From an uncultured candidate division Zixibacteria bacterium (lineage in GTDB: Bacteria > Zixibacteria > MSB-5A5 > SM1-73), in the NCBI GenBank assembly GCA_903908285.1, contig CAIVRH010000014.1:57991-121990 (forward strand): a stretch of 64,000 nt of DNA, written 5' to 3'. The notes beneath the pieces were generated by a model that did no database searches, was not told the DNA's origin, and worked only from the letters and a program-made list of their open reading frames with translations. Both the position numbers and the translations under genes were made by a program. Within the stretch, counting starts at the first letter, position 1. Each line of letters starts with the position of its first letter. This document shows positions 27,618-52,337 of this stretch, piece after piece.

Positions 27618-28175
27618 ATGATAAGAACAAAATTTGTCTTTTGGGTGTGTTTGATCTTGATTCTTCTCCTCAATTTCGCTTTAGCGGTGAGTCTGGAAAG
27701 GACTTCAACTCAGATAAAGCCAAAGGAAGAACCAAAGACCAGAGATTTCTCCAATGCCAACCCCATAACGACTACCGAGGTGAATCAGACTCCCAGTAGT
27801 CTACCAACGTCAACCAATTTCATTATGGTTACAGATGTCTTGGATGGTTTTGGTGGTCAGAAGCAAGGTAATGCCTGCGATCTCTCCTTTTTTGCAGGTG
27901 GTCAATCTTCACCTATCGGTATGGGATCAAGCACAAATTTCAAGCTCTATGCTGGATTTGTCTATCCGGCAGTGGTGAATTGCGGCGATGCTAATGCGGA
28001 TGGGGTGATAGACGTGGGAGATCTGGTATATCTGATCAACTATCTTTTCAAAAGCGGACCCCTTCCCAAACCCTACCAGGCGGGTGATGCCAACTGCAGC
28101 GGAACTGTCGATATAGGTGACGTGGTATATTTGATCAATTACCTGTTCAAAGCCGGACCGCCACCAACCTGTTGA
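27618..28175 (+). CDS. Small secreted dockerin-only protein (about 185 aa)
   Basis: GAGAGGTG Shine-Dalgarno before ATG 27618. An ATGA overlap start at 27597 is also possible. Signal peptide MIRTKFVFWVCLILILLLNFALA. C-terminus CGDANADGVIDVGDLVYLINYLFKSGPLP...GDANCSGTVDIGDVVYLINYLFKAGPPPTC. Confidence 0.65.
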   Translation: MIRTKFVFWVCLILILLLNFALAVSLERTSTQIKPKEEPKTRDFSNANPITTTEVNQTPSSLPTSTNFIMVTDVLDGFGGQKQGNACDLSFFAGGQSSPIGMGSSTNFKLYAGFVYPAVVNCGDANADGVIDVGDLVYLINYLFKSGPLPKPYQAGDANCSGTVDIGDVVYLINYLFKAGPPPTC

Positions 28176-31787: not shown

Positions 31788-34016
31788 ATGCACACAATCT
31801 CTCGCCTGATCAAAAAATCCATCTTTTTCTGGGTGTTATGCATTTCCCTGGTCAGTTTTTCATCCATCGGGCATGCGGGAACCGGTCCCTCCTGGGTTCC
31901 GCTGGTTCCTGTTGCAGATAAAACTCCCCGGGTGAATATGTTACGATCCGATCCCGCTCAGTTTACTTTTGAAATCCTGGTGCCGGGAATATGGTCGGAG
32001 GAAATCTCCACCCCGGGGGGAACTTACTCCTTGCTTTCCATACCTTCTGCCGGGGTAACTTCGGTGGTTAGCGAACCCAATTTGCCAGTATTGACCAGGA
32101 TGGTGCAAATTCCGTTTGGTGCAGTGGTGAATTTAAACGTGGAAAGTTATGAGGTCACAGAGAAAAGTCTAACCGATATGAAACTCACCCATCCGATAGC
32201 TCCGGTTCAACCTTCTATACCTAAGATAGCCGGAGCAGAGAAACAAGTCCGATTCACCATCAGCCAGAAATATTATCAGCAAAACTCATTTTTACCGGGA
32301 AATCTGGTCAAGCTGGGAAAAACCGGAATCATCCGGGGACATCGATACGTAACTGTCTTAATCTACCCGGTAAGTTATAATCCGCAGTTAGGGAAATTTA
32401 AAATATACTCCGATATAAGGGTGAAGTTGATCCTTTCGGGGTCGGATATGAGCACCACTCAAAACCAGCTTTTGCGTTATGCCTCCCCCCCGTTCGAGGA
32501 GCTTTGTTCGAAGTTATTCATAAATTATCAGTTCTATACACCCCTGGTCAAAACCAGCGCGGAATTGCCCATGAGCTATCTGATCATCTCCCCTCAGGAT
32601 TTTTATCCGAGCCTGGCTTTGCTGGTAGACTGGAAAACCCGAAAAGGATTCCATGTGACTGTGGCGCAGACTTCGGAAATAGGCTCAACCAAAGAAGAGA
32701 TAAAAAGTTATATTCAGAACGCTTACGACACCTGGACCATCCCCCCCACCTATGTTTTGCTGGTGGGGGATGTCGAATATATTCCCAACTGGATCGGGTC
32801 TTCCAGTTCCACTGCCACGGATCTTAATTACGTCAAGATGGATGAAGATGATTTTGCCGATATATTCCGCGGCAGATTGCCGGCGAAAAGTTTGTCGGAG
32901 GCGGAAGAGATGATAAACAAGATATTATATTACGAGAAGCCAACGTTACCCGATCTGGACTGGATGAAAAAGGCAAGCTTCATCGCCGCTTCCGATTTGA
33001 GCGGTTTTGCCGAAAGAACCCACGATTATGTGATGTTGAATTACTGCAATCCCACCGGGATGATCTGTGATACCATCTGGCAGAGATTGGGCGGATCGAC
33101 CGCCATGATCACCAGCAGCGTCGATGAGGGGAGAACTATCCTGTGTTATTCCGGGCATGGCAGTGAAACCGGCTGGACCAGCGTTCCTTTCAATCAGACT
33201 AATGTGGCGAATCTAACCAATGCAGATGAGTATCCTTTTGTCCTTTCCCATGCCTGTTTGACCGGGAGATTCAGCGTTTCCGAAAGCTATGGCGAAACCT
33301 GGGCCAAGGTGGCAAATAAAGCCGGCATCGCTTTCTGGGGAGCATCCAACTATACCTACTGGGACGAGGATGACATCCTGGAAAAACGGATGTTTCAGGC
33401 GGCATTTGCCGAAACCTGCTTTTCCATCGGCAGCATGACCGACAAAGCTTTGTGGTATCTTTACCAGTACTATGGAGGGGAAGGCTACAGCCAGTATTAT
33501 TTAGATATTTATAATATCATGGGAGACCCCTCCTTAGATCTGTGGACTAAGGTGGCTGATTCCCTCGTAGTAGCTTTCCCACACTTCATTTACCCCGGAA
33601 CAAATTCAGTCACCATCACCGTGCGGGATATCGATTCAGTTGCGGTTTATGGAGCTTTGGTATGCTTAGAAAAGGGGGATGAGATTTTAGAAACCGGTTA
33701 CACCGATCCTTCGGGTCAGTTAACTTTATATCCTTCTCCCCTCACCTCAGGGGCAATAAATGTGACCGTCACTGCCCATAATTTCCTGCCTGTGTTAGAT
33801 TCCATCCTGGTATCATCCGGGAAGGGTGATGTTACCGGCGACGGCGAGATCAATCTGGGGGATTTGGTCTTTCTCATGAACTATCTTTACAAGAATGGAC
33901 CTGCCCCCGCTCCTTTGACCAACGGTGATGTAAACTGTGACGATAAGATCAATTTGGGAGATTTGGTTTATCTGATCAATTATCTGTATAAGGGAGGCTC
34001 CTCTCCCTGTTCTTAA
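31788..34016 (+). CDS. Gingipain-like cysteine peptidase (family C25) with C-terminal type-I dockerin (paralog of 19207..21453)
   Basis: Signal peptide MHTISRLIKKSIFFWVLCISLVSFSSIGHA. Catalytic region ILCYSGHGSETGW...FVLSHACLTGRF. C-terminus GDVTGDGEINLGDLVFLMNYLYKNGPAP...GDVNCDDKINLGDLVYLINYLYKGGSSPC. Confidence 0.75.
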   Translation: MHTISRLIKKSIFFWVLCISLVSFSSIGHAGTGPSWVPLVPVADKTPRVNMLRSDPAQFTFEILVPGIWSEEISTPGGTYSLLSIPSAGVTSVVSEPNLPVLTRMVQIPFGAVVNLNVESYEVTEKSLTDMKLTHPIAPVQPSIPKIAGAEKQVRFTISQKYYQQNSFLPGNLVKLGKTGIIRGHRYVTVLIYPVSYNPQLGKFKIYSDIRVKLILSGSDMSTTQNQLLRYASPPFEELCSKLFINYQFYTPLVKTSAELPMSYLIISPQDFYPSLALLVDWKTRKGFHVTVAQTSEIGSTKEEIKSYIQNAYDTWTIPPTYVLLVGDVEYIPNWIGSSSSTATDLNYVKMDEDDFADIFRGRLPAKSLSEAEEMINKILYYEKPTLPDLDWMKKASFIAASDLSGFAERTHDYVMLNYCNPTGMICDTIWQRLGGSTAMITSSVDEGRTILCYSGHGSETGWTSVPFNQTNVANLTNADEYPFVLSHACLTGRFSVSESYGETWAKVANKAGIAFWGASNYTYWDEDDILEKRMFQAAFAETCFSIGSMTDKALWYLYQYYGGEGYSQYYLDIYNIMGDPSLDLWTKVADSLVVAFPHFIYPGTNSVTITVRDIDSVAVYGALVCLEKGDEILETGYTDPSGQLTLYPSPLTSGAINVTVTAHNFLPVLDSILVSSGKGDVTGDGEINLGDLVFLMNYLYKNGPAPAPLTNGDVNCDDKINLGDLVYLINYLYKGGSSPCS

Positions 34017-34283: not shown

Positions 34284-34622
34284 ATGAAATTGAGCATAGC
34301 GAAATCCGTAGGAAAGAAAATAATCCTTATAGTTGCTTGTGCTGTTTTACTTCTGATTTTTGCTTCTTCAGGGTACGGAGGGGGTAATGGAAAATATCAA
34401 TATATAAACCTCGAACACCCATGGAGTGATCCCTGTCTATCACCATCAGTTAATGGTACTGTTACAAACGCACTGATAATTCTGTTTGGCCATGATATGA
34501 TATTAGGATTTATGTTAAATGGAGACAAACCAACAACCCAAAATATCGATCAATCAAATACAAATCAAGGAATATGGATAAAATACCCTCAAAAGTCGAC
34601 CAAGAGATCGCATCAAAGATAG
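34284..34622 (+). CDS. Hypothetical small secreted/membrane protein (about 112 aa)
   Basis: AAAGGAGG Shine-Dalgarno before ATG. N-terminal TM/signal segment KIILIVACAVLLLIFASSGYG. Overlaps the next gene by about 49 nt, so uncertain. Confidence 0.3.
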   Translation: MKLSIAKSVGKKIILIVACAVLLLIFASSGYGGGNGKYQYINLEHPWSDPCLSPSVNGTVTNALIILFGHDMILGFMLNGDKPTTQNIDQSNTNQGIWIKYPQKSTKRSHQR

Positions 34623-36937
34623 AGTCGATTGAATCTTTAGTTAAACAGAAGAAGTTCAGTGAGGCGTTAGCTGAGATTCGGGACTTAGAATGTCAGAAGA
34701 TCGTAGACCGTTTCTCTCAAGAGGAAGGAAATATTCATTTCCTCTTGTCTTCGATTTATCACTATTTAGGTCGGTATCAGGAGGGTATAGAAGAATGCAG
34801 AAAAGCATTTGATTGCTTAAAAAACACATCGGAGAATGATAAGATCGCACAAATTCAGTTTACTTTAGGTTGCATTTATGTCGCATTAGGAGATTTTGAA
34901 AAAGCTGAATTAGAATTGAGGGATGCACTCGCCAGTCATAGACGTATTGGAAACAAACAAGGGATGATAAATATCTATAGCAAGCTTGCTAACATTTGTT
35001 TTATTAATTCTGATTTCGATATAGCGATCAAGCATCTTAAAGAAGGTATTAAATATTGTGATGAAAATGATGGGGAAACAACAAAAGCAATATTATCTGC
35101 AAATATGAGTAGAATTTTTATACTGAAAGGTATGTGGCGCGATGCACAAGAGACTCTCGTTTCATCCATCAAGATTTTTCAAGAAAAGGGTTGCAATTTG
35201 TATCTCGGTCAGGCTTACCTTTCTTTAGGTTATGTATGTCATTTGCAACGAGATTTCCAGAGAGCAAAAAGGTATTATGAGCAAGCTTTAAAAATCATCT
35301 ATGAAAATAATTACTTGCGGGAGATGGCAATCTACTATGAATACTATGGAGAGTTAGCTTTCACCCAAGGGAATTACTTCTTGGCTAAGGACCATTGTAG
35401 AAATGGGATCAAGATAGGGGAAGAGATTGCTCCAGATAGTGGAATCGTTAGTCAGACTTATCGGCTCTTGGCAGAAGTTCAAATTGCAGAAAAGCAGTAT
35501 GATGAAGCTTTGTCATCCTGTGAGAAGGCATTAAAGGTTGCGACATCTTTGGGAGAAAGAATCGAGATCGGAGCAATTCACCGGGCATTGGGGCAGATTT
35601 ATACTGCTAATAAAGATAAGAGTAAAACCAAAGAGAATTTTGAGAAGAGCATCTCCATCTTAGAAGAGATCGGAGCGAAGTTCGAATTAGGTAAGGCTTA
35701 TTTGGAGGCGGGAAAATCAGATGGATTTGAATATTTCGTTCGCTTGAAGTTTTTGGGCATTGCAGATGACTTGTTCAAAGAGCTTGGAAGCGCCTATTAT
35801 CAAGGCTTGGTGAATCTCTCATTAGCTCATCTTCTCTTTGAGCACAATGAACTTGAAAGGTCTCTCCTCTTTCTAAATTCAGCCGAGAAGATATTCCGGG
35901 AATTATCTGAAGAGAAGGAACTGAAACAGGTTTCTGATCTGAAGAAGAGACTTTCTTCCACTCCAATAGCTTTATCGTTCCCCCAAAAAGTCTCCTTTAT
36001 CCATGTAATCGCCCAAAGTCCTGAGATGCTCTCCGTAATTGACAAAGCCAAGCAGATCAAGGATTCAATTCACACCATTCTGTTGGAGGGGGAGACCGGA
36101 ACCGGCAAGGACCTTTTAGCCCGGACCATTCATGGTGAGAGCCGTTACAAAGACAAACCCTTCGTTCCGGTCAACTGTGCCGCTATACCTAAGGATTTGG
36201 TGGAGAGTGAGCTATTCGGGTATAAGAAGGGCGCATTCACCGGCGCTAATACGGATAAGAAGGGATTAGTGGAGGCGGCGGAGGGAGGGACCCTGTTTTT
36301 AAACGAGATCGCGGATTTGCCGCTTTTGACTCAAGCCAAGCTATTGGGGGCGATTGAGGACAAACAGATCACCAGATTAGGTGATACCAAGCCGCGGCAG
36401 GTCGACTTCAGGATTATTGCCGCCAGTAATAAGGACTTGCAGGAGCAGGTGAAATCCGGGAATTTCCGGGAGGATCTGTATTATCGTTTGAGTGTAATCA
36501 AGTTAGTCCTTCCGCCCCTCAGAGACAGAAAAGGGGACATTCCTGTTTTGCTCGATCATTTTCTTAGGAAACATTTTGGTGATGACGGGAACGAGCTTTC
36601 CAGCATTCATCCCCAAATATTGAAAATATTTGAAAGCTATCATTGGCCCGGAAATGTGCGGGAGCTGCAGAATGAGATCATAAAACTCATCACCTTGAAC
36701 GGGGAAGAATGCAGGGATGGGTCCGCGAATCTACCGGATAAGTTTTTATCTTCACCGTATATCTCCGAAACTGTTGGTTCTTTATATGATCAGGTGACAC
36801 AATTTGAGAAGAACTTGATTTTGAAAGCACTCGAAGAGAATAATTGGATAAAGATAAAGGCAGCCAGGACCCTCAAGATGCCTGCTATGACTCTGAATAA
36901 CAAAATCAAGAAATATCAAATAGAGATACCAATTTAA
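34574..36937 (+). CDS. Sigma54-dependent transcriptional activator (bEBP) with N-terminal TPR-repeat sensor region and C-terminal Fis-type HTH; no receiver domain
   Basis: About 470 aa of TPR-like repeats, then an AAA+ core: GETGTGKD (Walker A), [15 protein letters not shown] (GAFTGA sigma54-contact loop), [11 protein letters not shown] (Walker B, with Asn in place of the usual Asp), [25 protein letters not shown] near the end ([21 protein letters not shown]). Confidence 0.8.
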
Positions 36938-37113
36938 GTAGTCTGCTACCATTTCTGGTAGATTTTCATAATCCATTCATTCGCAACTGAATAGATCAGG
37001 ATTCGAGGTCTATTACATCATCTCCCCTACCAAATCTGGTATATCTGTTATTCGTTAGCCCGAGGAGATTGAGGATATAACAAGAAGCTGTTGAAGTTAC
37101 TTCCTTATATCAC

Positions 37114-37148
37114 AACCACTTGCCAAAAGGTAAGTGGTTTTTTGTTTT
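37114..37148 (+). terminator. Rho-independent terminator of the sigma54-activator gene
   Basis: aaccacttgccaaaaggtaagtggtt (8-bp stem) followed by tttttgtttt. Confidence 0.7.
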
Positions 37149-37493
37149 CTGGCATGCTTCTTGTAGATGCTCTCACCGTGGTGGACCAATTTAGTGAGCA
37201 ATCTTAATTGGTTTTACCCCTTCCTGTTGAAAGGAAAGCCCTGTCCCGCTTCTGTGCCGTCCCCGGAGGCGGGATGGGGTAGAAAGAAAGAAGATGACCA
37301 GGTTTAAAGTTTGACGGAAAATACATTTTTTACTCCTTTTCCCGCCAAAGGCGGGATCCCGACTCTTATCGGGACAAGTAAGTAGTTGGTTTGTGCCCAA
37401 AAAACGCTCCGCCCCTTCAACAATATTGACAATTGCCAAAAGGGGTGGAGCGGGAGAAAAGAGGAAGTAAAATGAAAATATGATAACAATCCC

Positions 37494-37580
37494 CATCTTA
37501 ATCGTTGACAAGGAGGTGATCTCATCTTATTGTTAAGAATAAGAAATTTCAAGAATTGCAAAAAAACAGGAGGAGGTAAG
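37494..37580 (+). promoter_or_regulatory. Conserved 87-nt promoter/5'UTR element, copy 1 (TTGACA-N17-TATTGT, AGGAGGAGG Shine-Dalgarno)
   Basis: About 95% identical to 40411..40503. Contains cgTTGACAaggaggtgatctcatctTATTGTtaag and aggaggaggtaagATG. Confidence 0.6.
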
Positions 37581-38599
37581 ATGAAAGCCCCAGGACTAAT
37601 CTTTGGGTTGTTTGTGTTCTTCTTTGTTCATGTGGTTTGGTTTCTGCCCAGCCTTTTGAGACTATTGAGATTGGTACTGGTGCTCATCCTCGATGGTCGC
37701 CTGATGGAACAAAAATAGCCTTCATTTCCAATGAGTGGATGTGGATGCGAAATGCGGATGGCACTGGAGAGACTACGAAATTGCTTAAAATCCCGGAGTA
37801 TGCCTACCATTTCTACTGGTTGGATTCTTCTGTATTTATGTTCCAAGACACCGGTGGTATTGCCACCATAACATTAGATGGTAAAAGAAGTGTGATAGCA
37901 AAAACCAAGAATGGAGAGACAGCCTCCTTCTATGTTCTTGGACCAATACTTTTGGCTGACGGAACAGTTGGTTATTATGAAGCCCCTCAAGGGAAAATGA
38001 TTTGGGAAACAGAAAAACGGATATTCAAAGTGATAAAACATGGCATACTTCCTCCAGACTCAAGCTTGAAACAGATGATAGCACTGGAGCACGTTCGAAA
38101 TCTGCCAGAATATGTGAATGAAGGTATTTGGCTCGAATCTCTTGACGGAACCATAAAGAAAAAGATAAGTAGCTACAGATACTATGATTCCCCTGTATTG
38201 TCGCCGGATGGAAGGAAAATCTTAGTGGTTGGTGGCACAAGGTGTGATGTTAGTGTCCTTGATTTGGGTGGTGAAGGGTTCTGCGTTGGCAAGAAATCAA
38301 TTATCCCTGTAAATCCGAAAGATACTACATTCATTCGGGGAGAAGTTGATGGTATACCCCTTTGGTCACCGGACAGTAAACGAATAGCTTATGCCTATGT
38401 AAGATATAGATCAGTTAGCGAGGATAACGTGGAAATTGTCGGCTCCGAACTATATATAGAAAATCCCGATGGCACAAACAGGGTACAGATAAACATCCCT
38501 GATGGAAACCCAACTGGACCGGTCTGGTCTCCGGATGGATCAAGGATCGCATGTACTGACCGCTTAACTACGAAGATATTTGTCATAGAACTAAAATAG
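37581..38599 (+). pseudogene. Secreted PD40 (TolB-like) beta-propeller protein, paralog A; apparent frameshift between signal peptide and mature domain
   Basis: The signal peptide MKAPGLIFGLFVFFFVHVV is in one frame from ATG 37581. The mature part (VSAQPFETIEIGTGAHPRWSPDGTKIAF...WSPDSKRIAYAY...WSPDGSRIACTD...KIFVIELK) is in the +2 frame from about 37640. Paralogs B and C have both parts in one frame. An indel lies in ggtttggttt. Could be an assembly error. Confidence 0.55.
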
Positions 38600-38772
38600 T
38601 AGTAGCCCTTTGCTACTTGCCTCATACATCGTCATTCTCCAATTTCAGGCTTTGGCTCGGCCTGAATAGGAAGTAAAATAAGGTAAAAATATCTATCGAC
38701 AAAAAGAGAATTAATGTTATTATAAATGTGCAAAATAGGAAAATAGCAGGTAATAATTCAGGAGGAGCTTAA

Positions 38773-39882
38773 ATGAGAACCCCAATACTGATCTTCGGGT
38801 TAATTGTGTTTTTCTTTGCTTCATGCAGTTTAGTTTATGCCCAGCCATTTGAGGAGATTGAAATCGCCACAGGAGCGGATCCGCATTGGTCACCGGATGG
38901 AACCAAGCTTGCTTATGTTTATCATGCTGCGCTTTATGTAGCAAACGCAAATGGGGAAGGTGAGCCACAAAAAATCGAAGAGCTTCCGGAAAATGCTGAA
39001 GGTTTTGCCTGGTTGGATTCAAATGAATTTCTGGTGTGGGGGAGGGATTACGGAAGGGAAGAAGGGGGTATGTTAAACAAAAGCAACTGGATCCAAGCGA
39101 TAAATAAAAACGGAGAGAAACGATCCATTGCCAGAGATAAGGAGATTGCTGAAGATAGTAAGCCGCATGAAATTCCCCTCATCTCCGGGCTTACGATTTT
39201 AAATGATGGGACAATAGGTTATTGGGAGACACCGATGGGGGTGGAGGACGAATGGGAAAATACCAACAAAGTATTCCACATAATAAAACAGGGAAAGCTC
39301 CCACCGGATTCTGCGGTGAAGCAACTTCAAGCAGTTTGGCATTATGGAGGGATATACAGCCGCGGAGGTAAACAAGTATACCCGGAACAAGGTATTTGGC
39401 TGGAGAGCGTAGATGGAACCATAAACAAAAAAGTCAGCTCGTGCGATCACTGCTCATTTCCAGTTTTATCTCCTGATGGAACCAAAATTCTTGTAGTGTG
39501 TGGTGCAAAATGCCCTACATGTATACTAGACCTAAATGGAAACGAATCATGTGTCGGGAAGGAACCAATTGATCCTTCTGATCCTATGGATACGGTCTTT
39601 ATCAGAGGTAATGTGAATGGATTGCCCGTTTGGTCTCCAGATGGGGAAAAAATAGCCTATGGGTATCACTGGTATAAACCTGTAATGGAGGGTTATGATG
39701 ATGTTGACATTATTGAGATTACTTCTGATATATACATAGAGAACTGGGATGGCAGTGGTAGAATTCAGGTAACCGATACCCCAGATATAGCCGAAGGTGG
39801 ACCGGTATGGTCGCCAGATGGATCAAAGATTGCCTGCACAGACAGTAAAACGGCTAAGATATTTGTTATAAAACTAAGATAA
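38773..39882 (+). CDS. Secreted PD40 (TolB-like) beta-propeller protein, paralog B
   Basis: AGGAGGAG Shine-Dalgarno. Signal peptide MRTPILIFGLIVFFFASCSLVYA. Motifs QPFEEIEIATGADPHWSPDGTKLAY, VLSPDGTKILVV, VWSPDGEKIAYGY, VWSPDGSKIACTD. C-terminal KIFVIKLR. Confidence 0.7.
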   Translation: MRTPILIFGLIVFFFASCSLVYAQPFEEIEIATGADPHWSPDGTKLAYVYHAALYVANANGEGEPQKIEELPENAEGFAWLDSNEFLVWGRDYGREEGGMLNKSNWIQAINKNGEKRSIARDKEIAEDSKPHEIPLISGLTILNDGTIGYWETPMGVEDEWENTNKVFHIIKQGKLPPDSAVKQLQAVWHYGGIYSRGGKQVYPEQGIWLESVDGTINKKVSSCDHCSFPVLSPDGTKILVVCGAKCPTCILDLNGNESCVGKEPIDPSDPMDTVFIRGNVNGLPVWSPDGEKIAYGYHWYKPVMEGYDDVDIIEITSDIYIENWDGSGRIQVTDTPDIAEGGPVWSPDGSKIACTDSKTAKIFVIKLR

Positions 39883-39914
39883 AGAAGCTAATATATTTAA
39901 TAGGGAGGCTAAAA

Positions 39915-40457
39915 ATGAAAAAGAACATAATATTTTCTGTTGTGCTTCTAATAGTTGCATTTTCACCGTCCATAATTTTCGCCGATTGGGTTGTTTGCAT
40001 TGATGCGGGACATGGGGGACCGGGCGCAGATAAATATACTAATGGTGGAGATTTGTCGGGGACTGCTGGAAAATGTATCAAAATCGCAGAGCAGTGGGTT
40101 AACTTCAATGTAGCTTGTGAGTTAAGATATGCTATACTTCAAACAACGATGTACAATGTTGTTATGACCAGGCAATCTGAGGCTGATCCCTATTATGGGT
40201 ATGGTATAAATGAGTGGGACCGGAACTTATGGAAACGTGCCCGAATAGCAAATTACGCTAAAGCAGGTCTAGGGGATATTTATGCTCGTCATGCTGATCA
40301 ATTCATTTCTATCCATCATAATGGCTGGGACGATTCGCTTACACAAGGTATAGAAGTATTTTGGTGTTCCAAACAAACAACAGACAGTGGTTATTCGCGT
40401 TGCTATGTACCATCTCCTTTAATCGTTGACAAGGAGGTGATCTCATCTTATTGTTAA
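39915..40457 (+). pseudogene. N-acetylmuramoyl-L-alanine amidase (Amidase_3) gene, 3'-truncated where the 87-nt conserved element begins
   Basis: Signal peptide. Catalytic-domain motifs CIDAGHGGPGADKY, IAEQW, FISIHHNGWDD, QGIEVFW. The last 15 codons (PSPLIVDKEVISSYC-stop) are encoded by the repeated promoter element. The C-terminal part of the domain, containing the catalytic Glu, is missing. Confidence 0.55.
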
Positions 40458-40503
40458 GAATAATAAATTTCAAGAATTTCAAACAAAACCAGGAGGAGGT
40501 AAG
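40411..40503 (+). promoter_or_regulatory. Conserved promoter/5'UTR element, copy 2
   Basis: catctcctttaatcgTTGACAaggaggtgatctcatctTATTGTtaagaataataaatttcaagaatttcaaacaaaaccaggaggaggtaagATG. Confidence 0.6.
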
Positions 40504-41511
40504 ATGCGAACCCAAAAACTAATTTTAGGGTTGTTTATGCTCTTATTTGTTTCTCACAGTTTCATTTTTGCCCAGTCGTTTGAAACCATTCAGATTGGGA
40601 ATGGCACTCAAAAGTTCAGCAAGCCAGTTTGGTCACCTAATGGAGAAAATTTAGCATTTTGGGGACATGGGGGAATCTATGTTTGCAAGTGGGATGGATC
40701 GGAACAACCCAAGAAGATATTCGATACCTTTGGTGAGGATTTAATGTGGGCATCGGATTCTGAATTGGTTTATTGGCAAAGAAAATATTGGGAAGAAAAG
40801 CAGGAAGGGAAAAGACCAAAGCGAATGGAAAGGGATTTTATAAAACTGGTAAATCTAAAAGGAGAGGAACAAACTATAACGGAAGGTAACAACTTGCAAG
40901 CCCCCTGTAAACTGCCCGATGGAGCAGTAATCTTCGCAGGTGAACAAGGATATGAGATAATCCGGGAAGGTAATTTGGGCAAAGATGCTCTCAAAGAACA
41001 GTTTGGCGTTACTTCCCATTACCCACCTATTTATGATTCAAGGAAAAAAGGGCCAGAGTACGAAGACACGGACATATGGATTAGCTCATTGGATGGAAAC
41101 TTTAAAAAGAGGGTAACTTATGGCAAAGAATATTATACTCCCAGAATTTCGCCTGATATGACGAAAATATTAGCCAGTGATTTTATCGTCTTAGACCTAA
41201 ATGGTAATGAGTTAGCTAATCTGAATCCCGGGACCAAAATGATTTCTAAGTATGTTAGTTCCATCCCCTGTTGTTCTAAATGGTCACCAGATAGTAAAAG
41301 CATCGTTTACACGATGGAAGTGGACAATGACGAAACACAGATGATTGAAGGATCAGAACTGTGCATCATAAATGTTGACGGTCCCGGTAGAACAGAAATT
41401 ACTTCTACTCCAGCTGAAATTGAGTTGAACCCGGAGTGGTCACCAGATAGTGAAAAAATAGCCTGTAATTCGCTGAATACAGGAAAAATATTCATTATCA
41501 AGTTAAAATGA
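40504..41511 (+). CDS. Secreted PD40 (TolB-like) beta-propeller protein, paralog C
   Basis: Signal peptide MRTQKLILGLFMLLFVSHSFIFA. Motifs QSFETIQIGNG...VWSPNGENLAF, KWSPDSKSIVYTM, EWSPDSEKIACNS. C-terminal KIFIIKLK. Confidence 0.7.
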   Translation: MRTQKLILGLFMLLFVSHSFIFAQSFETIQIGNGTQKFSKPVWSPNGENLAFWGHGGIYVCKWDGSEQPKKIFDTFGEDLMWASDSELVYWQRKYWEEKQEGKRPKRMERDFIKLVNLKGEEQTITEGNNLQAPCKLPDGAVIFAGEQGYEIIREGNLGKDALKEQFGVTSHYPPIYDSRKKGPEYEDTDIWISSLDGNFKKRVTYGKEYYTPRISPDMTKILASDFIVLDLNGNELANLNPGTKMISKYVSSIPCCSKWSPDSKSIVYTMEVDNDETQMIEGSELCIINVDGPGRTEITSTPAEIELNPEWSPDSEKIACNSLNTGKIFIIKLK

Positions 41512-41553
41512 AAGCATTTTACTACTATGCATTCATTCTTCAAGGGGGATCAG

Positions 41554-44500
41554 ATGAAAGGAAAATCACTTCTTAAATGTGTTTTATTGGTTTTGATTGG
41601 AATTACGTTTTTTTATTCTACATGTGTAGCTATTATCTACGTTTGTATAGACCCCGGACATGGCGACAATAAGCATGGATCTGAAGGTCAACATTTCCAC
41701 AGTTTAGAGAAAAATGCCAATCTTAAAGTCGGATTGGCATTAAGAGATTCTTTGAACACACTTGGATATCCAGATTCAACAGTAAGAGTGATTATGACTC
41801 GAACTGGTGACACAAACCCTAGTTTCCAACAACGAGCTGCCTGTGCTATGGGTGATAATCCTGATAGTGCAAGAGCAAGTCAGTTCATTATTATTCATCA
41901 TAACGGCGATACTTCTGATGTTACTAATTACATCATGTCTTATGTTTGCACTTATGTGGATCAAATTCCTGGTGACACTACTGAGAGGGACATAAGCATA
42001 AATCTGGTAGACAGGGTTCAGGCAAAGATGGTTGATATTTTGGGATATAAAGAGGCTTCTCAGAGACTAAAAGATAGCTGTTGGTACGTCTTAGAGTATA
42101 CTAGCATGATTTCTGCTTACCCAGAAGTATCTTTTATGACATGTAGGAAGATAGATTCTCTTTTTCATTACGATACTACCTATGCAAGAAAAGAAGCAGG
42201 GAGTATATACCGTGGATGGCGTGCATATATGGGAGATGATCCCATTATAGTCGTAAGGAATCACTTTGACGGAGGTTATGTTTTGGTGGATAGTATCTCC
42301 CGTGAGTCCCCCTTTCACGGAGCTTGGATGAATGGTGAATCACATCGCATCGGAGCTTACAATCAAACTGGCTATGGTGCAGATGGCTACTATCGATGGT
42401 ACGAGTTTTGCCGATGGCAAGACCAAATATCCCAGCAAGAGCGGAATATCTATGTTGGTAATGACGATGAGGTATATACAGCTTATTTCTCTTGGGACAA
42501 TTCAGGCTCTCATCCCTATTACATAATAGTGCAAAGTCCAAATGGAGATGAGAGTTACGGCATGGGACAAATCATGCCCATTTGTTGGTATGCCGACCCG
42601 GGTATTATCGACCCTGATGGAAATTGTAATGGAACTTTTCTGGATATTTATCTTTCAAGAAACGGAGGTCAAAACTATGATGAAATTATTCAATCGGATT
42701 GGCCAACTTCCGGAAACGCATACGGCTGCTATGAATACTGGCATGTCACAGGTCCCCCGTCTGGTCAATGTAAAATCAAGATATTAGCACATGATGATAT
42801 TTGTAACAATGATTATGATGTCTCAAATTATAATTTTGCTATATTGTGTGCTCCCCAGCCTAATTCTCCTTCTAATCTGATTGCAACGAATTATGGATGT
42901 GATGCACGCATTTCCTTATACTGGCAAGATAATTCTACAACTGAGGATGGTTTCAATATTTATCGGGATGGGCAACTTACCGGTTCCGTGGGAGCAAATG
43001 TTACCACGTTCACCCAAACGGGACTTCATCCGGGTCAAAGTTATTCTTATTATGTCAAAGCACAAAGACAAGGGTGTGAATCCGCACCCACCAACACGGT
43101 GAGTTCGGTTCCGGGACTCCTTACCCCAACCGCTCCTACGAATCTTCAGGTGGTGAACGTTGGGCCGTGCGAATTCCGAGCCACATGGCAAGACAATTCA
43201 TCCAACGAAGATGGTTTTGTCATAAAAAATGGAACTTTTTTACATGCAAGGGTTGATCCCAACATTACCAGCTATCAGGGATACTATTTCCCGGAAGCAG
43301 AATGGAAGCAAACTGGTGATTTCTACGTGTATGCTTATACCGACGATCCTGGCAGTGGTTGTAAATCTTACTCCAATCATGTGAACCTTGACCCACCTGG
43401 TGGTTTAATGCTCTGGCCTACTGACATTCAATTCCACGGCTCTGATTGCTATTGGTATATCACCTGGCATAAAAGAGACAACTACGACCGGTGCCAGGTC
43501 AAAATCAAGTACACCGATTATACTACCACCACCGGCTGCGATGAACAATACAACTTTTGGTATACCCAGCTTTCATCCCCGGATAGTTTCCGGTTTCTGC
43601 CCAGTGTGGGCGATCATTGTTATCAAGCGCAGGTTCGTGGGGGCAAGTGGGTGGATTGTGGGTCCTACGGAGATATGAAATGGTCGGAATATCCCCCACC
43701 TACTTACTGGGTGCGGATTATCTGCAACAATCCACCCTGGGGTTGCCCTTACCTTTTTGTACCCGATGGAGAAAAATACGTTGGCGAGAATACCATTTTG
43801 GCGCCGGCAGAAATGTCAACGGAGAGGGACTTAGACATCAACGATTACTATCTCATACGTCAATCGTTAACTCCAATAGATAGTCTGTATAAGCTTCGTA
43901 TAGCTGAATTCGAAAGTGAACACTCCTTCTTTGACCAAGTAAAGCTTTTGGCGGTAGATCATGATCTTAGCACGAAAGCGGCGGTGTCTGCAAAAGGCGA
44001 AGTATTCGTTTATAATCCCACCGACTATTTCGAGCCTATCTCCTGCAGTGATAGAAACGGGGTAAATAAAGACTCCCTCCTCCAATTAGAACCCGAAGAT
44101 AAAGTTTTTCTTTCTGGATCGGGTTCTCTGACTTTAAATTTCGGATCGATTCCCTCGGATACCGGAAGTCTGATTATGCTCGCTCCCTGCTGCGGGAGCC
44201 CCAAGTTCCCCAAGGCTATTACCAAGATTGCATCCGGGGCAGAACCAACCCAGCAAATCGGCTTGTTGGTTGAGACGGAGGGGAATGGGGTTTGGCAGAA
44301 AGTCGACTCGCTTCCGCCAAGAATGGAACAGCAGGAAGTTCTGGTAAATCTCTCCGATCACACCTCCCCGGAGCGGGCGCTAAAAATAAAACTGAGCTGG
44401 GACGAAAGAGGTTATACCTTTTCCAAAGTTCGCTGCTTGCGGGCGCAAAGGTTTAATCAACCGGTATCTCTACCGTTGATTTCCGCTTACCATTCCTCGG

Positions 44501-44958
44501 CCGGTGAGGTGAAGCAGAAACTAACCTCGAATGACAATGACTATGCGGAAGTTTTGCCCGGACAAAATATCGATTTATCTTTTTCCTATCAGCCAGTCGA
44601 GCCGAATAAAGTCAGGGATTTGGTATTCGAGTGTAACGGGTATTATTTCACGGAAAATACGGCTCCGGACAGCAGCAGTGATACCAGCGAGATCTCGCAG
44701 AATTATCCCAACCCTTTTAATCCGCAGACTCAGATCAAATTTACCGTAATCAAAACTGCACCGGTAAATCTGGCAATTTATAATATTCTCGGACAAAAAG
44801 TCGCCACTTTAATGGACGAAACATTGCCGGTGGGAAAACATGTGGTAATTTGGAACGGCGAAGACGATTCCGGTCAAAAAGTGGCAAGCGGTATTTATTT
44901 CTATCGTCTTCAAGTAGGGGAGTTTAATGAAGTAAGGAAGATGATACTGATGAAATAA
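41554..44958 (+). CDS. Giant secreted protein: N-terminal Amidase_3-like domain, central region, two FN3-like modules, C-terminal T9SS sorting domain
   Basis: AAGGGGGAT Shine-Dalgarno and signal peptide. Amidase motifs CIDPGHGDNKHG, LEKNANLKV, FIIIHHNGDT. FN3-like NLIATNYGCDARISLYWQDNSTTEDGFNIYRDG and NLQVVNVGPCEFRATWQDNSSNEDGFVIKNG. CTD ISQNYPNPFNPQTQIKFTV...IYNILGQKVATLMDE...GIYFYRLQVGEFNEVRKMILMK. Confidence 0.75.
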   Translation: MKGKSLLKCVLLVLIGITFFYSTCVAIIYVCIDPGHGDNKHGSEGQHFHSLEKNANLKVGLALRDSLNTLGYPDSTVRVIMTRTGDTNPSFQQRAACAMGDNPDSARASQFIIIHHNGDTSDVTNYIMSYVCTYVDQIPGDTTERDISINLVDRVQAKMVDILGYKEASQRLKDSCWYVLEYTSMISAYPEVSFMTCRKIDSLFHYDTTYARKEAGSIYRGWRAYMGDDPIIVVRNHFDGGYVLVDSISRESPFHGAWMNGESHRIGAYNQTGYGADGYYRWYEFCRWQDQISQQERNIYVGNDDEVYTAYFSWDNSGSHPYYIIVQSPNGDESYGMGQIMPICWYADPGIIDPDGNCNGTFLDIYLSRNGGQNYDEIIQSDWPTSGNAYGCYEYWHVTGPPSGQCKIKILAHDDICNNDYDVSNYNFAILCAPQPNSPSNLIATNYGCDARISLYWQDNSTTEDGFNIYRDGQLTGSVGANVTTFTQTGLHPGQSYSYYVKAQRQGCESAPTNTVSSVPGLLTPTAPTNLQVVNVGPCEFRATWQDNSSNEDGFVIKNGTFLHARVDPNITSYQGYYFPEAEWKQTGDFYVYAYTDDPGSGCKSYSNHVNLDPPGGLMLWPTDIQFHGSDCYWYITWHKRDNYDRCQVKIKYTDYTTTTGCDEQYNFWYTQLSSPDSFRFLPSVGDHCYQAQVRGGKWVDCGSYGDMKWSEYPPPTYWVRIICNNPPWGCPYLFVPDGEKYVGENTILAPAEMSTERDLDINDYYLIRQSLTPIDSLYKLRIAEFESEHSFFDQVKLLAVDHDLSTKAAVSAKGEVFVYNPTDYFEPISCSDRNGVNKDSLLQLEPEDKVFLSGSGSLTLNFGSIPSDTGSLIMLAPCCGSPKFPKAITKIASGAEPTQQIGLLVETEGNGVWQKVDSLPPRMEQQEVLVNLSDHTSPERALKIKLSWDERGYTFSKVRCLRAQRFNQPVSLPLISAYHSSAGEVKQKLTSNDNDYAEVLPGQNIDLSFSYQPVEPNKVRDLVFECNGYYFTENTAPDSSSDTSEISQNYPNPFNPQTQIKFTVIKTAPVNLAIYNILGQKVATLMDETLPVGKHVVIWNGEDDSGQKVASGIYFYRLQVGEFNEVRKMILMK

Positions 44959-50411: not shown

Positions 50412-50559
50412 GTATTTTTGTTCAAGGGATAGGAAATTTAGTGCGCAGGCTGGTCACCTTGCCCACCATTAAAATAATGCGCCGGGGCTGGGAGCCTCGG
50501 CTACGGAAATGACAGCATTATTAAGATTATCGTGAGTGAAGATTAGAGGGGAGAAAATT

Positions 50560-51528
50560 ATGCTTAGAACCACGGGAGTGGGGAATTACCCCAAAATAAC
50601 TGAGGACAAAACCTGCCTTGGCCTCCGGCAAGCGAGAAATCAATTCGATCAGAAGAAAATCTCCGCTGAGGAACTGGAACAAGCTTATCAAGAGACCATC
50701 AAAAGGGTAATAAGAGAGCAGGAGGAAACGGGTTTGGATTTGATCACTGATGGACAGATCCGCTGGGATGATCCAGTTACACCTTTTGCCAAACACATTC
50801 ATAGCTTTGAAATTGGCGGGCTTCTGAGATTCTTTGATAACAATGTCTATTACCGCCGACCGATCATCAAATCAAAACTGTCTTTTAAGGAATATTTCGT
50901 AGTCGATGAATTTAAATTTGCTAAAGCTTCATCCAAAAAGGAAATCAAACCGGTTATTGTTGGTGCCTTTACCTTTGCTCAATTATCCTTGGATGAATTC
51001 TATCATGACGAGGAGAAGCTGGTTCTCGAATTAGCCGGTATTCTGCACAAAGAAGCGGAAAAGTTGGAACAGGAGGGGGCGAAGATAATTCAGATAGATG
51101 AACCATCCTTATGTTTTTATCCGGAGAAACTCAAGCTGGTGCACGAGTCTTTGAAAATAATCACCCAGGATATAAAAGCTAAGTTTGCCCTGTATCTTTA
51201 TTTCGGATCGATCAGAAAACTTGCCCCCGAATTATTCGATCTTCCGGTGGATATACTGGGTGTGGATGTGGTAAGCAAAAGCGAGAATTTGGATTTGCTA
51301 TTGGAATACGATGGAAAAAAGGAGATCGGTTTAGGTTGTGTGGATGCGCGGGATACCAAGATGGAGACCGAATCTGAGCTTTTGACAATTTTTGAGAAGA
51401 TTACAAAGGTAATCCCTTCAGAGAAAATCTATATTAATCCTTCCTGCGGACTCGAATTCCTCCCGCATGCTGAAGCGCAGAAAAAGCTTAAGAATATGGT
51501 GCAGGCGGTAAGGAAGTTCAACCGATAA
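50560..51528 (+). CDS. Short cobalamin-independent methionine-synthase-like (MetE C-terminal-domain/UroD-fold family) protein
   Basis: MLRTTGVGNYPKITE resembles the MetE LPTTTIGSFPRT motif. Also IQIDEPSL and INPSCGLEFLPH (zinc-ligand region). Length about 320 aa, as in archaeal-type MetE. Confidence 0.55.
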   Translation: MLRTTGVGNYPKITEDKTCLGLRQARNQFDQKKISAEELEQAYQETIKRVIREQEETGLDLITDGQIRWDDPVTPFAKHIHSFEIGGLLRFFDNNVYYRRPIIKSKLSFKEYFVVDEFKFAKASSKKEIKPVIVGAFTFAQLSLDEFYHDEEKLVLELAGILHKEAEKLEQEGAKIIQIDEPSLCFYPEKLKLVHESLKIITQDIKAKFALYLYFGSIRKLAPELFDLPVDILGVDVVSKSENLDLLLEYDGKKEIGLGCVDARDTKMETESELLTIFEKITKVIPSEKIYINPSCGLEFLPHAEAQKKLKNMVQAVRKFNR

Positions 51529-51671
51529 CAGTCAACGGTCATTTGACTCAACTGAGATGAAGCACCCAGAAAGGTGCCCGTCTGGACGGATACAACGGAT
51601 AAAATCTTGAAGATAAACTATGACCGTGAAACTGGTTGTATTTACTTTCGATTAATTCTGCTTAATATGCC

Positions 51672-52253: not shown

Positions 52254-52337
52254 GAATTCTTCCTTCATGCTAAAGAACAAAAAAGCTTAAGGATATGGTA
52301 CAGACGGTGAGAGAGTTCAATCGATAGCAGTCAACGG
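52254..52337 (+). repeat. Diverged (about 85% identity) duplicate of the 3' end of the MetE-like gene (copy of 51454..51538, including its stop codon)
   Basis: gaattcttccttcatgctaaagaacaaaaaagcttaaggatatggtacagacggtgagagagttcaatcgatagcagtcaacgg aligns with gaattcctcccgcatgctgaagcgcagaaaaagcttaagaatatggtgcaggcggtaaggaagttcaaccgataacagtcaacgg. Confidence 0.7.

What the first reader, a model, noticed from the sequence alone, without database searches (positions are those of the whole stretch)
37494..40503. An 87-nt promoter-plus-5'UTR cassette is about 95% identical upstream of PD40 paralogs A and C although the coding sequences are highly diverged, and its second copy truncates an amidase gene
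Copy 1 (37494-37580) and copy 2 (40411-40503) both run from catct...aatcgTTGACAaggaggtgatctcatctTATTGTtaagaataa through aggaggaggtaagATG. The downstream proteins share only about a third of residues. Conservation of the non-coding DNA far above that of the coding DNA means either strong purifying selection on a regulatory RNA/operator (the leader is AT-rich with a conserved caagaatt(g/t)caaa block) or recent spread of the cassette as a mobile promoter unit. Copy 2 supplies the last 15 codons and the stop of the Amidase_3 ORF at 39915, cutting off the C-terminal third of its catalytic domain. This is direct evidence that the cassette was inserted.
Basis: seen in the sequence. Interest (0 to 1): 0.6.

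Follow-up and report, generated by a model that had tools for sequence, protein, structure and literature searches.

The report
Duplicated promoter module in PD40–amidase array
Two nearly identical 86-base promoter and leader segments sit in front of two very different PD40 genes because a local rearrangement and copy-correction occurred in a tandem gene array that also cut an amidase gene short; it is not a jumping promoter, and the case is interesting but fairly ordinary.

Summary
Window 37498-37583 and 40419-40506 are 95% identical (83/87 columns). Both edges are sharp: DNA upstream is 46% identical, and differences jump from 4/88 to 26/89 columns just after the ATG. The downstream PD40 proteins A and C share 38% of residues.

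The "inserted mobile promoter" reading is not supported.
- Copy 2 plus gene C is collinear with the orthologous locus of a relative (L005), so copy 2 is in its native place.
- The amidase ORF (Am1') is the first ~165 codons of a gene whose ortholog is 707 aa. It was cut by a deletion or illegitimate join ending at the first base of the module's conserved core.
- No further copies exist in the window, and relatives carry one exact core each.
- The module holds a sigma-70-like promoter (TTGACA-17-TATTGT) whose hexamers are conserved across the PD40 family, and it has no conserved RNA fold.
- It is the last ~90 nt of a ~480-nt conserved leader that starts with a sigma-54-like promoter behind a sigma-54 activator gene.
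- Leader copies within one genome are 86-91% alike, against 66-77% between genomes. Concerted evolution or recent copying therefore explains the 95%.
- PD40, amidase stub and cassette arrays recur independently in relatives (L021).

The parts
34574..36937 (+). Sigma-54-dependent activator (bEBP) with an N-terminal TPR region. It is the conserved left anchor of the locus in relatives.
   Evidence: Pfam Sigma54_activat 2e-67, TPR_12, HTH_8. The same gene lies upstream of PD40 arrays in L005, L012 and L021.
37099..37497 (+). Conserved leader. It holds a terminator hairpin (37114-37139), a sigma-54-like promoter TGGCATgcttcTTGTA (37150-37165), CU-rich and GA-rich stretches, and GC-rich hairpins (about 37238-37285, 37343-37385, 37405-37452).
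   Evidence: An nhmmer leader profile matches 37099-37583 at E = 2e-120. The sigma-54 pattern is unique in the window, with 0.2 expected. Hairpins carry a few compensatory changes.
37498..37583 (+). Cassette copy 1 (K1). Core TTAATCGTTGACAAGGAGGTGAT; -35 TTGACA at 37505-37510; -10 TATTGT at 37528-37533; SD-like AAGGAGGTGATC at 37510-37521; RBS AGGAGGAGG at 37568-37576; ATG at 37581.
37581..38599 (+). PD40 paralog A. It has a 1-nt frameshift in the signal-peptide region, after about 37626 in a T run, so the ATG frame stops at 37718 and the main frame reopens at 37637.
   Evidence: The same split gene calls (45 aa + 284 aa) appear in other assemblies. The closest relative is L021 PD40-3, at 56% identity and NJ bootstrap 87.
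38666..38775 (+). Degenerate cassette homolog upstream of B, with its own promoter-like site TCGACA-16-TATTAT at 38696-38723.
   Evidence: Alignments. nhmmer match at 38666-38831, E = 1e-29. Promoter scan.
38773..39882 (+). PD40 paralog B, intact. It is the ortholog of the PD40 genes of L012 (70%) and L015 (66%).
39915..40457 (+). Am1': the truncated Amidase_3 gene. Codons 1 to about 168 are orthologous to the 707-aa L015 amidase, and codons 169-180 plus the stop are read from cassette copy 2.
   Evidence: Pfam covers profile positions 1-95 of 174. Identity to the L015 amidase is 61% aa over 177 residues, with nucleotide homology up to 40418.
40417..40420 (+). Breakpoint ...CTCCTT|TAATCG, with at most 2-3 T of microhomology.
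   Evidence: One search shows where amidase homology ends. Searches show where cassette homology starts.
40419..40506 (+). Cassette copy 2 (K2). -35 at 40426-40431, -10 at 40449-40454, ATG at 40504. It lacks the upstream leader.
   Evidence: The nhmmer leader profile matches only its positions 423-517 here.
40504..41511 (+). PD40 paralog C, intact. It is the ortholog of L005 P0002 (75% aa).
41527..44958 (+). Am2: a full-length secreted amidase with Amidase_3 (profile 1-170 of 174), fn3 and a T9SS C-terminal sorting domain. It is the partner of C.
   Evidence: It is 51% identical to the L005 amidase over the catalytic domain.

Best explanation
What the repeat is
- The 86-nt repeat is the gene-proximal expression module of PD40-family genes in this Zixibacteria-like lineage.
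- It holds a sigma-70-type promoter (TTGACA, 17 nt, TATTGT), an A-rich 5'UTR of about 45 nt and a strong ribosome-binding site.
- It forms the last ~90 nt of a ~480-nt conserved leader. That leader begins with a sigma-54-like promoter just behind a sigma-54 activator gene.

How the present arrangement arose
- The locus is a tandem array of PD40-amidase operons.
- Copy 2 is in its native place in front of C.
- Am1, the amidase partner of B, lost its last 540 or more codons, together with whatever lay between it and C. That intervening DNA probably included the upstream part of a second leader copy.
- The cause was a deletion or illegitimate recombination. Its right end falls on the first base of the module's conserved core, so the amidase ORF now reads 12 codons into the promoter.

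Why the copies are 95% alike
- Regulatory copies within one genome of this lineage are kept alike, by recent copying or by gene conversion.
- Neither transposition nor base-by-base selection is needed.

What is shown and what is inferred
- Shown: the anatomy, the orthology, the breakpoint, the copy numbers, and the within- versus between-genome identities.
- Inferred: promoter activity, the deletion as the causal event, and gene conversion as the homogenising process.
For: 1. K2 plus C (40418-41512) is collinear with L005 5446-6542 at 74.6% over 1103 nt. The leader upstream of K1 matches the L005 leader.
2. Am1' is orthologous to a 707-aa amidase that follows the B-ortholog in L015, and the homology stops at 40418.
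3. Phylogeny is discordant. A groups with L021-3, B with L012 and L015, and C with L005. K1 and K2 nevertheless pair at 95%, while K copies of other genomes are 65-75% identical.
4. Both repeat edges are sharp.
5. Leader copies within L005, L012 and L016 are 86%, 90% and 89% identical over 367, 358 and 99 nt. Between genomes the figures are 66-77%.
6. The window has one full leader, and K2 matches only the last 95 profile positions.
7. The -35 and -10 hexamers are conserved at 16-18 nt spacing in L012, L015, L016, L018, L025, L011 and L021, even where the spacer is unrelated.
8. Independent amidase stubs sit directly ahead of the next PD40 cassette in L021 (three of them), and L012 has an internally deleted amidase.
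9. No extra copies were found.
Against: - No relative or haplotype with an intact Am1 followed by a full second leader and C was recovered, so the deleted segment is hypothetical.
- A simple ancestor like L005 (activator, leader, K, C) fits equally well with a duplicative insertion of the A-B-Am1' block.
- The invariant spacer AAGGAGGTGAT, a perfect complement of the 16S rRNA 3' end, is not explained by a plain promoter. It could act at the RNA level in the long sigma-54 transcript.
- In L005 the best -10 is poor.
- No transcription data exist for this organism.
Confidence: 0.5

Rival explanations
1. Duplicative insertion. The ancestor looked like L005 (activator, leader, K, C, amidase). A 2.8-kb block from another PD40-amidase operon (A, B and the 5' part of Am1) was inserted. 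Recombination in the conserved RBS/ATG region made one junction and an illegitimate join 86 nt upstream made the other. This could happen by template switching, homology-facilitated illegitimate recombination or integration of a circle. K was duplicated on both sides of the insert.
For: - L005 has the activator, leader, K and the C-ortholog directly adjacent, with no A/B-type genes.
- The repeat ends exactly at the ATG and at the Am1 breakpoint.
- The orthologs of A and B elsewhere carry different cassettes: type 2 in L021, and a K with a different 3' half in L012 and L015.
- L012 shows an analogous 5-gene block flanked by 343-nt leader repeats that are 91% identical.
Against: - It needs two coordinated junctions.
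- The repeated leaders in L012, L005 and L016 are equally well read as the heads of successive operons.
- PD40 arrays behind an activator also exist in the distant L021, which suggests the array is old.
- No donor locus is known.
Confidence: 0.27
2. The 87-nt cassette is a self-spreading promoter unit that landed inside a complete amidase gene.
For: - The element meets the operational test of a putative mobile promoter: more than 50 nt at 80% identity or better, upstream of CDSs whose DNA does not align (definition in PMC3488235).
- In L018 and L016 the same core precedes non-PD40 genes.
Against: - K2 is collinear with the ortholog locus, so it was already in front of C.
- An insertion would leave the amidase 3' part downstream. 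Instead C starts immediately and more than 540 amidase codons are absent.
- There are only two copies in 64 kb and single exact cores in relatives.
- There are no inverted ends and no target duplication.
- A and C are paralogs, not unrelated genes.
Confidence: 0.05
3. Pure purifying selection. Every base of the cassette is constrained by an operator or a regulatory RNA, so two ancient copies stayed 95% alike.
For: A 24-nt core, TTTAATCGTTGACAAGGAGGTGAT, is invariant in the window, L012, L015, L016 and L018.
Against: - The 3' two-thirds of the cassette are only 57-71% identical between genomes but 94% identical between K1 and K2.
- B's cassette in the same genome has decayed.
- There is no Rfam family, no significant fold and no consensus structure.
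Confidence: 0.08
4. Assembly artefact. A repeat-induced chimera joined the amidase to the C promoter.
For: The source is a metagenome assembly, and an 86-nt repeat could in principle mislead an assembler.
Against: Identical junction-spanning contigs come from at least three separate ENA assemblies, with different contig naming styles (scaffold_N and k141_N). The amidase reading frame is continuous up to the junction.
Confidence: 0.02

Closest known systems
Putative mobile promoters / promoter propagation (Matus-Garcia, Nijveen & van Passel 2012, PMC3488235)
   Same: A stretch of 50-100 nt directly upstream of start codons is at least 80% identical within one genome, while the flanking coding DNA does not align. 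In relatives, the same core and leader precede unrelated genes.
   Different: Here the two downstream genes are paralogs in one tandem array. One copy is demonstrably in its ancestral place. The family has two members locally, and nothing suggests movement independent of local recombination.
Concerted evolution / gene conversion between tandem paralogs (general knowledge, for example duplicated tuf genes and rRNA operons)
   Same: There is a short tract of near-identity with sharp edges inside otherwise diverged paralogous units. The tree of the tract disagrees with the tree of the genes. The same within-genome similarity is seen in three relatives.
   Different: The homogenised tract is purely non-coding (promoter and 5'UTR) and stops at the start codon. 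Classical cases homogenise the coding sequence.
Orphan immunity gene arrays with effector remnants and repetitive intergenic sequences (AID and rAID-1 systems of Bacteroidales; Ross et al., bioRxiv 10.1101/471110)
   Same: These are arrays of diverged small periplasmic-protein genes, each with a similar repeated intergenic sequence, next to pseudogenised remnants of the partner gene. The partner is a secreted cell-wall enzyme.
   Different: No T6SS and no recombinase is seen. The PD40 gene lies upstream of the amidase rather than downstream. An immunity role for these PD40 proteins is untested. The remnants are 5' fragments of the amidase.
Sigma-54 (RpoN) promoters controlled by adjacent bEBP activators
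   Same: An activator gene is followed by a terminator and a GG-N10-G(C) type element. That element is conserved in position across four genomes and is repeated in front of several operons.
   Different: The -12 element in the window is TTGTA, not TTGCA. The promoter is followed by a structured leader of about 400 nt and by a second, sigma-70-like promoter. Neither is a standard feature.

Membership tests
Putative mobile promoter (PMP, PMC3488235) | At least 50 nt aligned at 80% identity or better within the 100-150 nt upstream of two start codons in one genome | tested here: met
   83/87 columns identical, ending at the ATG.
Putative mobile promoter (PMP, PMC3488235) | Downstream CDSs are not homologous (not a whole-gene duplication) | tested here: not met
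   A and C are PD40 paralogs, 38% aa identical with the same Pfam domains. Only their DNA beyond about +90 fails to align.
Putative mobile promoter (PMP, PMC3488235) | Upstream CDSs are not homologous | tested here: met
   Upstream of K1 is the leader and the activator gene. Upstream of K2 is Am1'. The 60 nt upstream are 46% identical.
Transposable element / MITE | Terminal inverted repeats, target-site duplication and multiple dispersed copies | tested here: not met
   No inverted ends and no duplicated flank. Two copies in the window. One exact core per related genome or contig.
Sigma-70-type promoter | -35 and -10 hexamers with 16-18 nt spacing, conserved at orthologous positions | tested here: met
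   TTGACA-17-TATTGT scores 10/12 in both copies. Equivalent hexamers are seen by inspection in L012, L015, L016, L018, L025, L011 and L021, including cassettes with unrelated spacers. L005 is weak.
Sigma-70-type promoter | Mapped transcription start and activity | not testable with these tools
   No transcript data are available.
Cis-regulatory RNA / riboswitch | Match to a known family, or a conserved secondary structure with covariation inside the cassette | tested here: not met
   No credible Rfam match at E up to 10. Fold z-scores are -0.6 and -0.2. RNAalifold predicts 0 pairs on six cassettes.
Recent segmental (whole-gene) duplication | Flanking coding DNA as conserved as the cassette | tested here: not met
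   Identity falls to 80%, then 67%, then about 55% within 150 nt of the ATG. A and C have different orthologs.
Gene-conversion / concerted-evolution tract | The tract tree disagrees with the gene tree, the edges are sharp, and within-genome copies are more alike than between-genome copies | tested here: met
   The process itself (conversion versus recent copying) cannot be distinguished.
Amidase_3 (N-acetylmuramoyl-L-alanine amidase), functional member | A complete catalytic domain, including the C-terminal E-x-x-F-x-x-N region. From general knowledge of the family, this region carries the catalytic Glu. | tested here: not met
   Am1' covers profile positions 1-95 of 174. The motif is present in Am2 (PEVSFMT), the L005 amidase (CEVSFMTN) and the L015 amidase (SEGSNLSN), and absent from Am1'.
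Sigma-54 promoter (for the leader upstream of K1) | TGGCAC-N5-TTGCW, with GG at -24 and GC at -12 | tested here: inconclusive
   TGGCATgcttcTTGTA at 37150-37165 is unique in the window, with 0.2 expected. Its position is conserved in L005 and L012. The -12 element is GT rather than GC here, while L016b has a canonical GGCAAactctTTGCA.

The most novel reading that the evidence does not exclude
The PD40 genes could encode periplasmic inhibitors ("immunity" proteins) of the T9SS-exported peptidoglycan amidases encoded just downstream of them.

On this reading, the locus is an effector-immunity array under sigma-54 control. Amidase genes are repeatedly lost or truncated, while diverged PD40 genes are kept as orphan immunity genes. 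Each PD40 gene is re-equipped with the same promoter cassette by recombination. This would be a T9SS-linked analogue of the orphan-immunity arrays known for T6SS.

Observations consistent with it:
- PD40 and amidase genes are strictly adjacent in six or more loci.
- PD40 proteins carry a signal peptide or lipobox, and the amidases carry a T9SS sorting domain.
- There are four independent amidase truncations with the PD40 gene retained.
- PD40 genes also occur alone in L024 and L025.
- The PD40 paralogs are strongly diverged.

Nothing tests binding or inhibition.
Probability: 0.15. Interest if true: 0.7.

Novelty: new member of a known kind. Interest (0 to 1): 0.33.

Why it matters
The case is a clean, datable example of regulatory DNA evolving separately from the genes it drives. 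A promoter and 5'UTR stays near-identical across paralogs that share only 38% of residues, and a gene truncation marks the rearrangement point to the base.

Its wider value lies in the context it exposed in an uncultured Zixibacteria-like lineage.
- A conserved leader of about 480 nt, headed by a sigma-54-like promoter, is reused in front of different secreted-protein operons and is kept alike within genomes.
- Arrays of PD40, amidase stub and cassette have arisen more than once.

Both are testable leads on how these bacteria regulate and diversify cell-envelope and secreted proteins. The cassette duplication by itself does not change any general concept.

Tried and rejected
- **Rfam.** A scan of 36800-41700 at E up to 10 gave only chance-level eukaryotic snoRNA/miRNA and STnc370 hits.
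- **RNA folding.** Folding K1 and K2 gave a hairpin over the SD-like box in the window, but z = -0.6 and -0.2. It is not conserved in relatives, and RNAalifold predicts 0 pairs.
- **Exact 29-mer in GTDB genomes.** No hit, so the source genome is not a species representative there.
- **Exact 20-mer core.** It found only L012-type, L016 and L018 loci, one match each.
- **Homolog search with Am1'.** It returned only itself. The ortholog was found instead through the neighbour of the B-ortholog.
- **A conserved mini-ORF after the SD-like box.** L012 and L015 have ATG CCA TTA TAA and L005 has GTG TTT TTA TAA. There is no canonical start in the window or L018, so I did not adopt it.
- **N-terminal extension from TTG 37530.** It is in frame with A in K1, but the two 1-nt indels break the frame in K2. 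Rejected.
- **Terminal inverted repeats or target duplication around K.** None found.
- **Microhomology at the breakpoint.** Only 2-3 T residues.
- **Which copy is ancestral.** K1 and K2 are equally distant from every outgroup, so this is unresolved.
- **Long-range pairing.** The leader's CU-rich box (TTTTACCTCCTT in L012 and L016, with one base missing in the window) could pair with the cassette's AAGGAGGTGA. I saw this by eye only, with too few and too similar sequences for a test, so I do not rely on it.
Full report
**1. The observation**

Reading the region, aligning it and searching for repeats confirm two direct copies of a non-coding segment. K1 is 37498-37583 and K2 is 40419-40506. Each runs from TTAATCG to the ATG of a PD40 gene.

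The two differ by two substitutions and two single-base indels, giving 83/87 columns or 95%. A 45-nt block is identical. Both halves of the element occur exactly twice in the window, with none expected by chance.

The repeat has two sharp edges. The 60 nt upstream are 46% identical. Differences jump from 4/88 columns inside the repeat to 26/89 in the next 86 nt, starting at the first base after the ATG (Fisher p = 1.2e-5). Further into the genes, DNA identity decays to about 55%.

Contigs that are 100% identical and span the junction come from at least three separate assemblies. The arrangement is therefore real.

**2. The surroundings**

The locus reads as follows:
- a sigma-54 activator with TPR repeats (34574-36937);
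- a 640-nt intergenic region;
- PD40 gene A (37581-38599);
- PD40 gene B (38773-39882);
- a 180-codon Amidase_3 ORF, Am1' (39915-40457), which covers only profile positions 1-95 of 174;
- K2;
- PD40 gene C (40504-41511);
- a complete 1143-aa amidase, Am2, with fn3 and a T9SS sorting domain (41527-44958).

Gene A carries a 1-nt frameshift in its signal-peptide region. The frameshift is also present in the other assemblies. B has its own decayed version of the cassette.

**3. Relatives show which copy is native**

In L005, whose PD40 is 75% identical to C, the order is activator, leader, cassette, C-ortholog, a second PD40, then a full amidase.

Window 40418-41512 (K2 plus C) aligns without interruption to L005 5446-6542, at 74.6% over 1103 nt. 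The sequence upstream of K1 aligns to the L005 leader. K2 is therefore where a cassette belongs relative to C, and K1 is where one belongs relative to the leader and the activator.

A and B belong to a different PD40 clade. A groups with the third PD40 of L021, B with the PD40s of L012 and L015, and C with L005.

In L015 the B-ortholog is followed by a 707-aa Amidase_3-fn3 protein. Am1' is 61% identical to it over 177 residues. The DNA homology runs to window 40418 (...CTCCTT) and stops where the cassette core (TAATCG...) begins.

The amidase was therefore not interrupted by an inserted element. It lost more than 540 codons and now abuts C's own promoter module. Only the last 12 codons and the stop of the ORF come from K2. 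The missing part includes the conserved E-x-x-F-x-x-N region seen in Am2 and in the L005 and L015 amidases. From general knowledge of the family, this region carries the catalytic glutamate, so Am1' is very probably inactive.

**4. What the cassette is**

Across the window, L012, L015, L016 and L018, a 24-nt core TTTAATCGTTGACAAGGAGGTGAT is invariant. The remaining two-thirds vary.

The sigma-70-type reading holds up in comparison:
- TTGACA-17-TATTGT in the window;
- TTGACA-17-CATTAT in L012 and L015;
- TTGACA-17-TATTAT in L016;
- TTGACA-18-TATCAT in L018;
- in cassettes with unrelated spacers, TTGACA-17-TATTTT (L025, a 76% C-ortholog), TTGACA-16-TAAACT (L011) and TTGCAA-16-TAAATT (L021).

Conservation of the two hexamers and their spacing while the spacer changes is what a promoter predicts. 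L005 is the weak case.

There is no sign of an RNA element inside the cassette. Rfam gives no credible match, the folding energy is not significant and there is no consensus structure.

One thing is left unexplained. In the closer relatives the spacer AAGGAGGTGAT(C) is invariant. This sequence is a perfect complement of the 16S rRNA 3' end.

**5. The cassette is the end of a larger conserved leader**

The 400 nt upstream of K1 are homologous to the corresponding regions of L005, L012 and L016. This leader contains:
- a terminator hairpin;
- a sigma-54-like element (TGGCATgcttcTTGTA, 37150-37165), unique in the window with 0.2 expected, and canonical in a second L016 copy;
- CU-rich and GA-rich boxes;
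- GC-rich hairpins with a few compensatory changes.

A profile of this leader finds one full copy in the window, and K2 matches only the last 95 positions.

Relatives carry two or three leader copies within 7-21 kb, in front of unrelated genes. These genes are a radical-SAM block in L012, a 300-aa protein in L005, a 227-aa protein in L016, and small CarboxypepD_reg lipoproteins in L018.

Within a genome these copies are 86-91% identical over 99-367 nt. Between genomes leaders are 66-77% identical. K1 and K2 at 95%, against 65-75% to any other genome's cassette, fit this pattern. Intragenomic copies of this regulatory family are kept alike, by recent copying or by gene conversion.

Pure purifying selection cannot explain it. 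The variable part is 94% identical within the genome but only 57-71% identical between genomes.

**6. The pattern recurs**

L021 is a more distant relative. Behind an activator gene it has three PD40 genes that are 45-48% identical to one another. Each is followed by an amidase stub of 111, 86 or 71 aa, and then directly by a cassette of a second type. Two of these cassettes are 85% identical over 89 nt.

Two of the stubs share a breakpoint, which indicates duplication of a unit that already contained the junction. The third stub is of the Am1 type and has its own breakpoint. L012 has an internally deleted amidase behind its B-ortholog.

Fusion of an amidase 5' stub to the next PD40 promoter has therefore arisen several times. 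Cassettes more conserved than the coding sequence are a property of these arrays, not a peculiarity of this window.

**7. Best explanation and rivals**

I favour the following (confidence 0.5). A tandem array of PD40-amidase operons each had a leader or cassette. A deletion or illegitimate recombination removed the 3' part of Am1 and the DNA up to the conserved core of C's cassette. K1 and K2 are alike through concerted evolution or recent copying.

This accounts for both sharp edges without coincidence. The left edge is the breakpoint. The right edge is where non-orthologous genes begin, as it is for leader copies in relatives.

The main rival (0.27) is a duplicative insertion of the A-B-Am1' block into an L005-like ancestor, with K duplicated at the two junctions. 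The data cannot separate the two, because no haplotype with an intact Am1 or an empty site was recovered.

The remaining rivals score lower:
- A mobile promoter landing in the amidase (0.05) conflicts with the collinearity, the missing amidase 3' part, the copy numbers and the lack of element ends.
- Selection alone (0.08) conflicts.
- An assembly artefact (0.02) conflicts.

**8. Comparison with what is known**

Operationally the pair resembles the "putative mobile promoters" of Matus-Garcia et al. (PMC3488235). It fails their requirement that the downstream genes be non-homologous.

Mechanistically it is closest to concerted evolution between tandem paralogs, here restricted to the non-coding head of the unit.

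The array architecture is reminiscent of orphan-immunity arrays (bioRxiv 10.1101/471110). The shared features are diverged periplasmic-protein genes, repeated intergenic sequences and remnants of a secreted cell-wall enzyme gene. An immunity role for these PD40 proteins is untested. Literature searches found nothing on a T9SS amidase and PD40 pairing. By sequence the PD40 proteins resemble only TolB-type propellers.

**9. Verdict**

The promoter label is reasonable. The insertion and mobility interpretation is not supported.

This is a new member of a known kind: a duplicated or homogenised promoter module in a rearranging paralog array. Its interest is moderate to low, and comes mainly from the conserved sigma-54 leader family and the recurrent PD40-amidase-stub arrays uncovered around it.

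Noticed in passing
window 37099-37497 (also L005 5055-5445, L012 3563-4079 and 9469-9914, L016 6993-7366 and 2097-2356, L015 4956-5242): A conserved leader of about 400 nt lies behind the sigma-54 activator gene. It has a terminator hairpin, a sigma-54-like promoter (TGGCATgcttcTTGTA at 37150-37165), a CU-rich box, GC-rich hairpins with some compensatory changes, and GA-rich linkers. It has no Rfam match. It is multi-copy in relatives, in front of unrelated genes, and copies are 86-91% alike within a genome against 66-77% between genomes. It could be an undescribed cis-regulatory leader family.
   Followed up: partly
window 37620-37640: PD40 gene A has a 1-nt deletion in a T run within its signal-peptide codons. 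The ATG frame stops after 45 codons, and the main frame reopens at a TTG without a signal peptide. The frameshift is present in the independent assemblies too. A is probably a pseudogene, so K1 may drive a dead gene.
   Followed up: partly
window 37510-37521 and 40431-40442: The promoter spacer contains AAGGAGGTGATC, a 12-nt perfect complement of the 16S rRNA 3' end. It is invariant in L012, L015, L016 and L018. In L012 and L015 it is followed by ATG CCA TTA TAA, and in L005 by GTG TTT TTA TAA. By eye it is complementary to the leader's CU-rich box (TTTTACCTCCTT). Its function is unexplained.
   Followed up: partly
L021 4341-9102: Behind a sigma-54 activator lies an array of three PD40 genes (45-48% aa identical). 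Each is followed by a truncated Amidase_3 stub (111, 86 and 71 aa) and then a repeated promoter-like cassette of a second type (85% identical over 89 nt between two copies). At least two independent truncation breakpoints are present.
   Followed up: yes
L012 3492-3826 vs 9398-9739; L012 11125-11698: A 343-nt direct repeat of the leader 5' part, 91% identical and including the sigma-54-like promoter, flanks a five-gene block running from a radical SAM gene to Peptidase_M50. The amidase behind the B-ortholog is internally deleted, leaving a 47-aa N-terminal piece and a 128-aa T9SS tail piece.
   Followed up: partly
L005 5603-5841 vs 6823-7061; window 40573-40820 vs L005 6823-7070: The 5' 240 nt of the second PD40 gene of L005 are 82% identical to the first PD40 gene of L005, and 83% identical to window gene C, although the full proteins are only 54-55% identical. 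The mosaic suggests gene conversion between PD40 paralogs.
   Followed up: no
L018 9842-10000 and 10628-10769: The same invariant cassette core, and a diverged second copy, precede two small CarboxypepD_reg-domain lipoprotein genes rather than PD40 genes. These genes have a similar MRT.NL signal-peptide start. The module is therefore reused for other secreted proteins.
   Followed up: partly
window 26207-27061: Fifteen tandem copies of a 45-nt unit (61-72% identical in 225-nt register) lie inside ORF 25609-27600. The protein presumably carries a 15-residue repeat.
   Followed up: no
window 25359-25536, 27983-28160, 33824-34001, 55155-55332 (+ strand); 8865-9038, 19327-19401, 23443-23616 (- strand): Paired 79-nt repeats spaced 99 nt apart sit at the 3' ends of several large ORFs. 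At 33824-34001 they coincide with the Dockerin_1 domain of the Peptidase_C25 protein, so several secreted proteins here end in dockerin-type repeats.
   Followed up: no
window 51481-51538 vs 52280-52337: A 58-nt direct repeat, 86% identical, has copies 799 nt apart. The first copy overlaps the end of ORF 50536-51528. It was not examined.
   Followed up: no
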